Assembly (NCBI RefSeq): GCF_044324785.1
Contig: NZ_CP172130.1
Direction: 5' to 3' (one strand)
Length of the DNA stretch: 44,355 nucleotides
DNA from: Escherichia coli
GTDB taxonomy: Bacteria > Pseudomonadota > Gammaproteobacteria > Enterobacterales > Enterobacteriaceae
The position numbers and the translations under genes are program-made. The notes beneath the pieces were generated by a model, which had not been told where the DNA came from, ran no database searches, and saw only the letters and a program-made list of their open reading frames with translations. Of the stretch, positions 17,858 to 18,198 are shown one piece after another (the stretch's first letter is position 1; each line of letters starts with the position of its first letter).

Positions 17858-18104
17858 CTGTCAGACCAAGTTTACTCATATATACTTTAGATTGATTTAA
17901 AACTTCATTTTTAATTTAAAAGGATCTAGGTGAAGATCCTTTTTGATAATCTCATGACCAAAATCCCTTAACGTGAGTTTTCGTTCCACTGAGCGTCAGA
18001 CCCCTATACAGATGCACGCATAAAATTCATTTAAAGAAATGGCCATTGACAGACAATCTGAAGTCAAACTAGACAACTGGTGTCTAGTGCCATAATATTG
18101 TGGA

Positions 18105-18198
18105 TGTTGGATGTAGAGTATCTTCCTCCAGTCAGAGCCACCAACTCAGGACTGGAAAACACGAAAAAGCCCGATTACCAGTCGGGTTTTTTTGTGCC
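18105..18198 (+). ncRNA. Candidate small RNA (about 90 nt), putative type I antitoxin acting in trans
   Basis: Sigma70-like promoter TAGACA-17 bp-TAATAT (18070..18098); transcript begins at a 36-nt block about 85% identical to 7163..7198; ends at hairpin plus T8 terminator (18166..18198). Confidence 0.35.
18166..18198 (+). terminator. Intrinsic terminator (short GC stem plus T8 run)
   Basis: AAAAAGCCCGATTACCAGTCGGGTTTTTTT. Confidence 0.5.

What the first reader, a model, noticed from the sequence alone, without database searches (positions are those of the whole stretch)
18005..18198. Divergent ~90-nt sRNA with promoter and terminator, complementary in trans to the toxin leader
A TAGACA-17-TAATAT promoter (18070..18098) is followed by a transcript that begins with TGTTGGATGTAGAGTATCTTCCTCCAGTCAGAGCC and ends at a GC hairpin plus T8. 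That first block is about 85% identical to plus-strand 7163..7198, so the RNA would be antisense to the minus-strand toxin mRNA leader. The two blocks sat roughly 240 bp apart before Tn3 inserted between them. This is the layout of trans-acting type I antitoxins (IstR-1/tisB, OrzO/zorO, AgrB/dinQ). The RNA also carries CUUCCUCC, an anti-SD-like motif.
Basis: partly seen in the sequence, partly recalled or inferred. Interest (0 to 1): 0.72.

Follow-up and report, generated by a model that had tools for sequence, protein, structure and literature searches.

The report
AgrB antitoxin RNA of plasmid DqlB toxin
The small RNA gene is real, but it is an ordinary, already described part of plasmid biology: the AgrB antisense RNA that keeps the plasmid-borne DqlB killer peptide switched off, here separated from its toxin gene by an antibiotic-resistance transposon.

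Summary
Window 18105-18193 (+) carries a sigma-70-like promoter (TAGACA-17-TAATAT), an RNA of about 89 nt and a terminator hairpin followed by T7 (not T8). Its first 33 nt repeat plus-strand 7162-7194 (29/33 identical; 32/33 pair once G.U is allowed). The RNA is therefore antisense to the minus-strand leader of a 31-aa peptide gene (7084..6989).

The RNA matches Rfam AgrB (RF02891) at 68.8 bits against a gathering score of 40. The peptide matches NCBIfam DqlB (DinQ-like type I toxin). The window is an IncX1 plasmid. A Tn3-family transposon (7312-18004, TSD TATAC) splits the locus, and uninterrupted copies that are 100% identical exist in public plasmids.

Across 11 loci, 19 of 34 intermolecular base pairs show compensatory changes. 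DqlB/AgrB was named in 2016. In 2025 it was shown experimentally to be a post-segregational killing module on IncL and IncX3 plasmids.

The likely mechanism follows the dinQ/agrB model. AgrB sequesters a G-rich leader element, so the Shine-Dalgarno hairpin stays closed.

One locus-specific twist: the transposon sits between the -35 and -10 of the toxin promoter. An independent insertion lies 1 bp away in pOLA52. Whether the toxin is still expressed is unresolved.

The parts
18070..18098 (+). AgrB promoter: -35 TAGACA (18070-18075), 17-nt spacer, -10 TAATAT (18093-18098)
   Evidence: Consensus scan, 9/12 matches. The same region is 100% conserved in uninterrupted plasmids.
18105..18193 (+). AgrB-family antitoxin sRNA, about 89 nt. 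The TSS is inferred at about 18105; the Rfam match covers 18107-18194.
   Evidence: RF02891 at 68.8 bits (gathering score 40), model positions 1-84 of 84. MFE -31 kcal/mol, z = -4.1. No reading frame is conserved across homologues.
18105..18138 (+). 5' antisense segment of AgrB, which pairs with the dqlB leader; contains CUUCCUCCAG
   Evidence: 32/33 positions paired and a -60.9 kcal/mol core duplex. 19 of 34 pairs covary across 11 loci.
18127..18156 (+). Internal stem-loop of AgrB (CCAGUCAGAGCCACCAACUCAGGACUGG)
   Evidence: Present in the MFE structure. In the RNAalifold consensus, 3 of 9 pairs show compensatory changes. It matches the Rfam consensus structure.
18163..18193 (+). Rho-independent terminator of AgrB: 14-bp hairpin whose 3' arm is the run of seven T (18187-18193)
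   Evidence: -17.4 kcal/mol.
7305..7310 (-). -10 hexamer TATAAT of the dqlB promoter. The transposon target-site duplication overlaps its first four bases.
   Evidence: It aligns with the -10 of E. coli dinQ (TATGAT) and of six other plasmid dqlB loci. Function is inferred.
6935..7298 (-). dqlB mRNA. The +1 is inferred at G7298 by homology to dinQ +1; the 3' end is at the terminator hairpin 6969..6939.
   Evidence: Alignment with dinQ, fold and hairpin found by the scan.
7267..7298 (-). Leader element 1: the 5' end GUUGGCGCUGUACAGUGUGCCUCCCUUGC, which pairs in cis with the AgrB target site (S1 stem)
   Evidence: MFE of the +1 transcript. The 1:2 duplex is -30.5 kcal/mol. It corresponds to sequence 1 of dinQ (PMC5066626).
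7162..7194 (-). AgrB target site, containing leader element 2 (GGCAGGGGGAAGG)
7104..7114 (-). Leader element 3: ACUUCCUCCAG, the cis anti-SD
   Evidence: It forms a hairpin with CUGGAG in every fold where element 2 is occupied. 2:3 is -15.3 and 3:4 is -10.4 kcal/mol.
7091..7096 (-). Leader element 4: CUGGAG, containing the Shine-Dalgarno GGAG
6989..7084 (-). dqlB CDS: the 31-aa hydrophobic toxin MINLLIIVLRAVVAVANALIAVLELIRQFID
   Evidence: NF041473 DqlB at 72.8 bits against a cut-off of 35. Annotated as dqlB in identical RefSeq plasmids.
7312..18004 (.). Tn3-family (blaTEM-1) transposon, 10,693 bp, that splits the locus. It carries an N-terminally truncated tnpA, three IS26 copies, lnu(F), aadA, a truncated intI1 with attI, tnpR and blaTEM. 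The TSD TATAC is at 7307-7311 and 18005-18009.
   Evidence: Uninterrupted allele.

Best explanation
Window 18070-18193 is the gene for the AgrB antitoxin RNA of a DqlB/AgrB type I toxin-antitoxin module on an IncX1 conjugative plasmid.

Shown here:
- The RNA belongs to the Rfam AgrB family.
- The peptide gene at 7084..6989 (-) belongs to the DqlB family.
- The two genes were adjacent and divergent until a Tn3-family transposon inserted between them.
- The first ~33 nt of the RNA pair almost perfectly with the toxin leader about 80-110 nt upstream of the start codon.
- This pairing is kept by compensatory changes across plasmid and chromosomal homologues.

Inferred from the dinQ/agrB model (Kristiansen 2016) and reproduced only in silico here:
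- The full-length dqlB mRNA is translationally inert. Its 5' end (element 1) pairs with the G-rich element 2, which leaves the anti-SD element 3 free to close a hairpin on the Shine-Dalgarno sequence (element 4).
- 5' processing removes element 1. Element 2 can then capture element 3 and open the SD.
- AgrB, made constitutively from its own promoter, binds element 2 and its flanks in trans. It takes over the role of element 1, so the SD stays closed. The long duplex is probably cut by RNase III.

Inferred from experiments on IncL and IncX3 homologues: after plasmid loss the short-lived AgrB decays, DqlB is made, and the plasmid-free cell is killed.

Because AgrB acts in trans, the 10.7-kb insertion does not in principle disturb antitoxin function.
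For: - Family scores: RF02891 at 68.8 bits against a gathering score of 40, full length. DqlB NF041473 at 72.8 bits against a cut-off of 35.
- RNA gene features: promoter and terminator with a well-folded RNA, z = -4.1.
- Target specificity in the window: 32/33 positions paired and a core duplex of -60.9 kcal/mol. Duplex z = -9.2, and the toxin leader is the unique best target apart from the RNA's own gene.
- Accessibility-aware cofolding: a net gain of -33 to -40 kcal/mol, with 32/33 site nucleotides bound to AgrB.
- Ancestral arrangement: an uninterrupted, 100% identical locus is found in NZ_CP027138.1 and NZ_CP025864.1.
- Synteny: AgrB hits lie divergently beside dqlB or dinQ in 10 of the 13 loci scanned, spanning IncX1, X3, I1, K2/Z and F plasmids and two chromosomal sites.
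- Co-evolution: the own leader is the best partner for 10 of 11 sRNAs (cognate mean -56.5 against non-cognate -36.6 kcal/mol). 19 of 34 intermolecular pairs have changes on both sides. 90.9% of cells are paired, against about 40% in slid registers and 0 of 500 shuffles reaching the observed value.
- Structure switch: the four-element leader switch is reproduced. The SD is closed in the +1 RNA, partly open with 5' ends at +39..+45 and +79..+83, and closed again in every case when AgrB is added.
- Literature: the dql family and the mechanism (PMC5066626, PMC3567139). agrB rescues DqlB toxicity, is essential in Tn-seq on pOXA-48, and dqlB is found on 53% of IncX plasmids (PMC12365149). IncX3 agrB-dqlB stabilises a plasmid (PMC12317039). 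CRISPRi of agrB is deleterious (PMC12361523).
Against: - No expression data exist for this allele. The TSS, RNA length and 5' processing site are inferred.
- The in-silico opening of the SD is partial and depends on where the 5' end is placed.
- The transposon has replaced the -35 region of the toxin promoter, so the toxin half may be weakly expressed or silent. AgrB would then have nothing to neutralise in this plasmid.
- Compensatory change between two copies of a DNA repeat can also arise partly by gene conversion. However, in the eight indel-free loci most differences between the two copies are of the G.U-compatible kind (my tally from the pairings printed, setting aside sRNA position 1 and the conserved mismatch at position 26). 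That pattern argues for selection on RNA pairing.
Confidence: 0.9

Rival explanations
1. Disarmed module. The sRNA gene is genuine AgrB, but the transposon, which sits between the -35 and -10 of the dqlB promoter, has silenced or strongly weakened toxin transcription. In this plasmid the pair would then no longer work as an addiction system, and AgrB would be a dispensable leftover. This rival concerns present-day function, not identity.
For: - The TSD (GTATA on the minus strand) overlaps the conserved -10 TATAAT, and everything upstream of it is now Tn3 inverted-repeat sequence.
- pOLA52 carries an independent Tn3-family insertion 1 bp away in the same orientation: TSD TTATA against TATAC.
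- Its relative pESBL3312-IncX1 keeps the Tn-fused dqlB-2 but has no cognate AgrB anywhere in the plasmid. Only a non-cognate AgrB remains, with a duplex of -29 against -49 kcal/mol for the cognate. A Tn-fused dqlB is therefore tolerated there without its antitoxin.
- pOLA52 AgrB-2 has a -10 that has lost its final T (TAATAC) and a weakened terminator, -10.9 against -17.4 kcal/mol.
Against: - The perfect -10 TATAAT is retained on the toxin side.
- The replacement -35 (GTTCCA at 17 nt) scores no worse against TTGACA than my reading of the native one (ATGAAT at 16 nt): 3/6 each. This is my own inspection of the sequences. Neither passes the scan's threshold.
- The remaining part of tnpA and an IS26 copy are transcribed towards dqlB and could read through.
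- In the window, dqlB, its leader and AgrB are all 100% identical to the uninterrupted allele, so there is no decay.
- The pOLA52-type dqlB-2 allele has a weaker SD (AGAG) even in an uninterrupted plasmid (L019). It may be intrinsically less toxic.
Confidence: 0.35
2. Direct SD masking. The CUUCCUCC motif of the sRNA acts as an anti-Shine-Dalgarno that base-pairs with the dqlB ribosome-binding site itself and blocks ribosome entry there.
For: The sRNA contains CUCCAG, which is complementary to the CUGGAG of the SD region.
Against: - The best sRNA:SD-region duplex is only -13.9 kcal/mol, against -60.5 for the upstream site.
- In cofolds, 32/33 nucleotides of the upstream site are bound by the sRNA and the SD is closed by the cis hairpin.
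- Covariation supports the upstream site.
- In dinQ, agrB binds G88-A119, far from the SD at 184-187 (PMC5066626).
Confidence: 0.05
3. Protein-coding gene. The region encodes the small 'hypothetical protein' that RefSeq annotates across it (for example WP_000887751.1 in NZ_CP025864.1; the 88-aa ORF at 18080-18346 in the window), and the sRNA-like features are incidental.
For: An ORF spans the region, and a CDS is annotated there in some records.
Against: - Across 10 homologous loci no frame is conserved. Open frames range from 36 to 133 codons in different frames, and one IncI1 locus (L006) has stops in all three frames inside the RNA.
- The conservation pattern is that of an RNA: a covarying stem and a terminator.
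Confidence: 0.02

Closest known systems
AgrB / dinQ of the E. coli chromosome (arsR-gor intergenic region; Rfam RF02891; Weel-Sneve 2013, Kristiansen 2016)
   Same: - An sRNA of about 85-90 nt with its own promoter and terminator, divergent from the toxin gene.
- The 5' ~31-36 nt are antisense to the leader well upstream of the SD, with one conserved internal mismatch.
- The leader has four elements (1:2, 2:3, 3:4) and a conserved -10.
- The peptide is a single hydrophobic helix.
   Different: - Only one sRNA copy; there is no agrA paralogue.
- The toxin is DqlB (31 aa, ATG start), not DinQ (27 aa, GUG start).
- The promoter lacks the LexA box that overlaps the dinQ -10. Only the half-site is present (CTGTATAATCTTTGTG against CTGTATGATTATCCAG), and the only CTG-N10-CAG lies inside the leader hairpin.
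- The antisense sequences have diverged, so cross-talk is predicted to be weak: -43 against -60 to -62 kcal/mol.
- It is plasmid-borne.
DqlB/AgrB of plasmids pOXA-48 (IncL) and pOXA-484 (IncX3), experimentally validated post-segregational killing modules (PMC12365149, PMC12317039)
   Same: The same toxin family and the same Rfam sRNA family, with the same divergent layout and a complementarity of about 35 nt in the 5' UTR. IncX plasmids are a major carrier (53% in PLSDB according to PMC12365149).
   Different: - This is the IncX1 allele, and its antisense sequence differs. IncX3 AgrB against this leader gives -33 against a cognate -60 kcal/mol.
- The allele itself has not been tested experimentally.
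- The two genes are separated by a 10.7-kb transposon that sits in the toxin promoter.
IstR-1/tisB and OrzO/zorO (other trans-acting type I antitoxins of E. coli)
   Same: The general logic is shared. A divergent, trans-acting sRNA pairs with a 5' UTR site distant from the SD of an mRNA that needs 5' processing to become translatable.
   Different: There is no sequence or structure match. Neither IstR nor OrzO-P reaches threshold in the window. The only hit is a sub-threshold OrzO-P match of 29.8 bits to a terminator in pOLA52. tisB uses a ribosome standby site rather than an SD-hairpin switch (PMC5066626).

Membership tests
AgrB sRNA (Rfam RF02891) | Covariance-model score at or above the curated gathering threshold over the full model | tested here: met
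   68.8 bits against 40, model positions 1-84 of 84, window 18107-18194 (+), E = 9.8e-10.
AgrB sRNA (Rfam RF02891) | Independent sigma-70 promoter, Rho-independent terminator and no conserved ORF | tested here: met
   TAGACA-17-TAATAT. A 14-bp hairpin plus T7. No frame is conserved in 10 loci. All of this is in silico only.
AgrB sRNA (Rfam RF02891) | The 5' ~31-36 nt are complementary to the 5' UTR of a dinQ-family toxin mRNA, upstream of the SD | tested here: met
   32/33 paired (30 Watson-Crick of 34 in the wider count), -60.9 kcal/mol. The site is 7194..7162, about 80-110 nt upstream of the AUG. Covariation is seen in 19 of 34 pairs.
AgrB sRNA (Rfam RF02891) | Encoded next to, and divergently from, the toxin gene | tested here: met
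   This is true of the ancestral allele: 245 bp between repeat starts, and 100% identical uninterrupted plasmids exist. In the window itself the two genes are 10.9 kb apart because of the transposon.
AgrB sRNA (Rfam RF02891) | Expressed as a discrete small RNA that represses toxin translation and triggers RNase III cleavage | not testable with these tools
   Shown for E. coli agrB (PMC3567139, PMC5066626) and functionally for the pOXA-48 and pOXA-484 homologues (PMC12365149, PMC12317039), but not for this allele.
DqlB toxin (NCBIfam NF041473) | HMM score above the curated cut-off; a hydrophobic single-helix peptide of about 31 aa | tested here: met
   72.8 bits against 35 over residues 1-31. 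The DinQ model scores only 25.3 against 30.
DqlB toxin (NCBIfam NF041473) | Leader with four mutually exclusive pairing elements and an SD hairpin (dinQ/dql family, PMC5066626) | tested here: met
   The elements were located and their energies computed: 1:2 -30.5, 2:3 -15.3, 3:4 -10.4 kcal/mol. Folds switch on 5' truncation and on adding AgrB. This is prediction only.
dinQ proper (SOS-regulated) | LexA operator overlapping the promoter | tested here: not met
   There is no CTG-N10-CAG at the promoter. The only one, 7213-7228, is the leader hairpin SL2. The alignment shows that the dinQ LexA box is replaced by a half-site. The locus is therefore filed as dqlB, not dinQ.
Plasmid post-segregational killing (type I TA) | Unstable antitoxin against a stable toxin mRNA; killing of plasmid-free segregants | not testable with these tools
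   Demonstrated for homologues only (PMC12365149, PMC12317039). Here it is additionally uncertain because the toxin promoter is interrupted.
IstR / OrzO-P / Sok antitoxin families | Rfam model match | tested here: not met
   The whole-window gathering scan reported no match to these families.

The most novel reading that the evidence does not exclude
The dqlB promoter of IncX1 plasmids may be a recurrent landing site for Tn3-family blaTEM transposons. Two independent insertions lie 1 bp apart in the same orientation, both between the -35 and -10. Such insertions may disarm the toxin, turning an addiction module into a harmless remnant whose antitoxin can then decay or be lost, as in pOLA52 and pESBL3312-IncX1. 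Acquiring the resistance transposon would then also relieve the plasmid and its host of the toxin's cost. In this window AgrB would be an antitoxin without an active toxin.
Probability: 0.3. Interest if true: 0.35.

Novelty: already known. Interest (0 to 1): 0.15.

Why it matters
For annotation, it matters a little. AgrB is not annotated in the public records of this plasmid lineage, and a spurious 'hypothetical protein' is sometimes called over it. Type I TA modules of this kind are also easily missed in surveys of plasmid stability functions. For biology, the system is already described: DqlB/AgrB is a validated addiction module of IncL and IncX3 resistance plasmids. The only open question specific to this locus is whether a resistance transposon sitting in the toxin promoter has switched the module off. 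The answer would say something about how resistance plasmids lose or keep addiction systems.

Tried and rejected
- Direct anti-SD action of the CUUCCUCC motif: rejected on energies and cofolds.
- Protein-coding reading of the ORF over the sRNA: rejected because no frame is conserved.
- LexA/SOS control as in dinQ: no operator at the promoter. The only CTG-N10-CAG is the leader hairpin. It is the same 20-mer that PMC12211044 lists as a weak site with HI 11.64.
- A second agrA-like paralogue or another target in the window: none found.
- Consensus scans: the terminator scan did not list the plus-strand AgrB terminator, and the promoter scan did not list the dqlB promoter, whose -35 falls below its threshold. 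Both features rest on folding and on alignment instead.
- RNAalifold on 12 homologues: it recovered the internal stem-loop but not the terminator, which sits in an indel-rich part of the MAFFT alignment.
- Post-insertion decay in pOLA52: inconclusive. The weak SD and the short C-terminus of that dqlB-2 allele are also present in an uninterrupted plasmid (L019).
- Not used: the large protein-database, structure-prediction and metagenome tools. The family assignment was already unambiguous.

Full report
**1. The observation**

The consensus scan finds TAGACA-17-TAATAT at 18070-18098. From about 18105 the plus strand reads TGTTGGATGTAGAGTATCTTCCTCCAGTCAGAGCC.

The 89-nt stretch 18105-18193 folds into three parts: an unstructured 5' region, an internal stem-loop, and a 14-bp terminator hairpin that ends in seven (not eight) T. 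The MFE is -31 kcal/mol with z = -4.1.

The 5' block repeats plus-strand 7162-7194 with 29/33 identities. The 22-mer seed occurs exactly twice in the window, with zero expected by chance. Three of the four differences are of the kind that gives G.U wobble in an RNA duplex, so 32 of 33 positions can pair.

The core duplex is -60.9 kcal/mol. The duplex with the minus-strand leader is 9 standard deviations better than 1000 dinucleotide shuffles of the sRNA. That leader is by far the best target in the whole 44-kb window apart from the RNA's own gene.

The intervening DNA (7312-18004) is bounded by perfect 38-bp Tn3-type inverted repeats and a 5-bp target duplication, TATAC. Removing it puts the two repeat copies 245 bp apart.

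**2. What it is**

A whole-window Rfam scan gives a full-length match to AgrB (RF02891) at 18107-18194: 68.8 bits against a gathering score of 40. The 31-aa peptide encoded at 7084..6989 on the minus strand matches NCBIfam NF041473, 'DinQ-like type I toxin DqlB', at 72.8 bits against a cut-off of 35.

The reconstructed, transposon-free locus is 100% identical to uninterrupted loci in public plasmids such as NZ_CP027138.1 and NZ_CP025864.1. The toxin part matches more than 3000 PLSDB plasmids, which annotate it as dqlB.

The backbone is IncX1: a replication initiator, type IA topoisomerase, H-NS, Hha, a VirB-type T4SS and relE/parE. A near-identical Salmonella plasmid (NZ_CP104480.1) shares the window's coordinates.

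The transposon is a Tn3-family blaTEM-1 element that has been rearranged. It carries an N-terminally truncated tnpA, three IS26 copies, lnu(F), aadA with an attI/aminoglycoside leader, a truncated intI1, tnpR and blaTEM.

**3. Comparative evidence that the pairing is functional**

Thirteen loci were fetched: the uninterrupted copy of this allele (L001), ten other plasmid loci (IncX1, X3, I1, K2/Z, F and P) and two chromosomal loci (dinQ at arsR-gor and a dinQ-like gene at ybbP). AgrB-family hits lie divergently beside the toxin gene in ten of the thirteen.

The 5' antisense segment has diverged strongly between lineages, yet each sRNA still pairs best with its own leader in 10 of 11 cases. The cognate mean is -56.5 kcal/mol and the non-cognate mean is -36.6.

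Treating the intermolecular duplex as a helix on an 11-sequence alignment gives the following:
- 19 of 34 pairs show changes on both sides.
- 90.9% of cells are paired, against about 40% when the register is slid by 1-3 columns.
- None of 500 column shuffles reaches the observed covariation.

The two partners are copies of one DNA repeat, so gene conversion could contribute to this pattern. However, in the eight indel-free loci most differences between the two copies are G.U-compatible (my tally from the pairings, setting aside sRNA position 1 and the conserved mismatch at position 26). That points to selection at the RNA level.

The internal stem-loop of the sRNA also shows compensatory changes. 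No reading frame is conserved over the sRNA, so the 'hypothetical protein' that some RefSeq records place there is probably spurious.

**4. Mechanism**

The dqlB leader aligns with the E. coli dinQ leader along its whole length, including the -10 hexamer, the SL2 hairpin, the AgrB site, the anti-SD and the SD. By homology the transcript starts at G7298.

In the predicted fold of this +1 RNA:
- The 5' end (element 1) pairs with the AgrB site and its G-rich core (element 2, GGCAGGGGGAAGG).
- The SD (CUGGAG, element 4) is shut in a hairpin with ACUUCCUCCAG (element 3).

Duplex energies are ordered AgrB:2 (-60.5) << 1:2 (-30.5) < 2:3 (-15.3) < 3:4 (-10.4) kcal/mol.

Truncating the 5' end in silico to +39..+45 or +79..+83 lets element 2 capture element 3 and partly exposes the SD. 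Adding AgrB re-closes the SD in every case, with a net gain of 33-40 kcal/mol and 32/33 site nucleotides bound to the sRNA.

This is the mechanism demonstrated by SHAPE, in-vitro translation and RNase III assays for dinQ/agrB (PMC5066626; locus description in PMC3567139). Here it is inference plus prediction.

Its partner is element 2, not the SD; the direct sRNA:SD duplex is only -13.9 kcal/mol.

Unlike dinQ, the promoter has no LexA operator, only a half-site. That fits a constitutively transcribed plasmid addiction toxin.

**5. Comparison with what is known**

The dql (dinQ-like) family, including dqlB on natural plasmids, was defined in 2016 (PMC5066626). Three 2025 studies then addressed it experimentally:
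- On pOXA-48 (IncL), DqlB is toxic and agrB rescues. agrB and its promoter tolerate no transposon insertions. The pair mediates post-segregational killing, and dqlB is present on 53% of IncX plasmids (PMC12365149).
- The IncX3 agrB-dqlB locus of pOXA-484 is a functional toxin-antitoxin pair that stabilises a test plasmid (PMC12317039).
- CRISPRi guides that hit agrB are strongly deleterious (PMC12361523).

The present locus meets every membership criterion for AgrB and DqlB that can be tested in silico. It fails only the LexA-box criterion that separates dinQ proper from dqlB. It is therefore a known element, and this exact sequence is already in public databases. The IncX1 allele itself has not been tested experimentally.

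**6. The one locus-specific feature**

The transposon's target duplication (GTATA on the minus strand) overlaps the first four bases of the conserved -10 TATAAT of the dqlB promoter. The -10 stays with the toxin gene, but the -35 region is replaced by the Tn3 inverted repeat.

The same junctions, at 100% identity, occur in at least 16 PLSDB plasmids from E. coli and Salmonella. Most are IncX1 plasmids of about 38.6 kb from food animals. In one 165-kb record the two halves lie tens of kilobases apart.

pOLA52 and its relatives carry an independent Tn3-family insertion 1 bp away in the same orientation, with TSD TTATA. One relative, pESBL3312-IncX1, has kept the Tn-fused dqlB but lost the cognate AgrB altogether. 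Only a non-cognate AgrB remains, with a predicted duplex of -29 against -49 kcal/mol. In pOLA52 the cognate AgrB has a damaged -10 and a weakened terminator.

This suggests that a Tn3 end at this position can silence the toxin. The evidence is not conclusive, for three reasons:
- That allele has a weaker SD even in uninterrupted plasmids.
- The hybrid -35 is no worse than the native one by hexamer match.
- Read-through from the transposon is possible.

In the window itself, the toxin, the leader and AgrB show no decay.

**7. Verdict**

- Observation: confirmed, with minor corrections (T7, not T8; the repeat is 7162-7194).
- Interpretation: supported.
- Identity: the AgrB antitoxin of a DqlB/AgrB type I TA module on an IncX1 plasmid, split by a resistance transposon.
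- Novelty: already known.
- Interest: low. The only open point is whether the insertion has disarmed the toxin.

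Noticed in passing
window 7305-7311 and 18005-18009; L017 1588-1607; L018 1290-1310: The Tn3-family transposon sits exactly between the -35 and -10 of the dqlB promoter. pOLA52 (NC_010378.1) has an independent Tn3-family insertion 1 bp away in the same orientation (TSD TTATA against TATAC). This may be an insertion hotspot, or selection for disarming the toxin.
   Followed up: partly
L015 (NZ_MW390550.1) 32323-32640: pESBL3312-IncX1 keeps a Tn3-fused dqlB-2 but has no cognate AgrB anywhere on the plasmid. 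Only the non-cognate AgrB-1 at 32070-32156 remains. It is an apparently tolerated 'orphan' type I toxin gene.
   Followed up: partly
window 18080-18346 (+); L001 4466-4702: RefSeq annotates a 'hypothetical protein' (WP_000887751.1) directly over the AgrB sRNA gene, while AgrB itself is not annotated. No reading frame is conserved across homologues, so the CDS call is probably spurious.
   Followed up: yes
window 7213-7228: The only CTG-N10-CAG motif in the locus lies inside the conserved leader hairpin (SL2), downstream of the inferred TSS. The same 20-mer was listed as a weak putative LexA site (HI 11.64) for dqlB on another plasmid (PMC12211044). It is more likely an RNA structural element than an operator.
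   Followed up: partly
window 10322-15959 and 14219-14294: The transposon interior is rearranged. It has three IS26 copies and a tnpA lacking its N-terminus. A class 1 integron fragment is also present: a truncated intI1 and an attI/aminoglycoside leader (RF02912, 74.3 bits), followed by aadA and lnu(F) cassettes on the minus strand. The near-identical Salmonella plasmid NZ_CP104480.1 has a different IS26-bounded content between the same outer junctions.
   Followed up: partly
window 6743-6922 (-): A 59-aa hydrophobic ORF (MDFMSILGRCLLLPFPVAMFVGCLF...) with a strong SD (AAGGAGG) starts immediately after the dqlB terminator hairpin. It is conserved next to dqlB in IncX1 plasmids, annotated as hypothetical, and has no NCBIfam match.
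   Followed up: no
L011 1548-2721; L013 1533-2947; L015 31667-32406: Several plasmids (IncK2/Z, IncF, pOLA52-type IncX1) carry two tandem dqlB/AgrB modules with different antisense specificities. Non-cognate duplexes are predicted to be much weaker, which suggests insulated paralogous modules.
   Followed up: partly
L008 (E. coli chromosome, ybbP-mnmH intergenic) 1521-1954: A second chromosomal dinQ-family locus, annotated 'dinQ' by PGAP, has its own AgrB-family sRNA (53.6 bits) and a co-varied antisense site. It is distinct from the classical arsR-gor locus.
   Followed up: no
NZ_CP133918.1 (164,787 bp), junctions at 7212-7411 and 138337-138536: In this large E. coli plasmid the same two transposon junctions, and hence dqlB and AgrB, lie about 131 kb apart one way round the circle and about 34 kb the other way. 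This implies a cointegrate or a massive expansion between them.
   Followed up: no
window ~42770-43300 (by homology to L014 42779-43301): In the near-identical plasmid NZ_CP104480.1 a second toxin-antitoxin system is annotated: a RelE/ParE family toxin plus a 'plasmid stabilization protein'. Stability of this backbone therefore need not depend on DqlB/AgrB. I did not check the window's own sequence at these coordinates.
   Followed up: no
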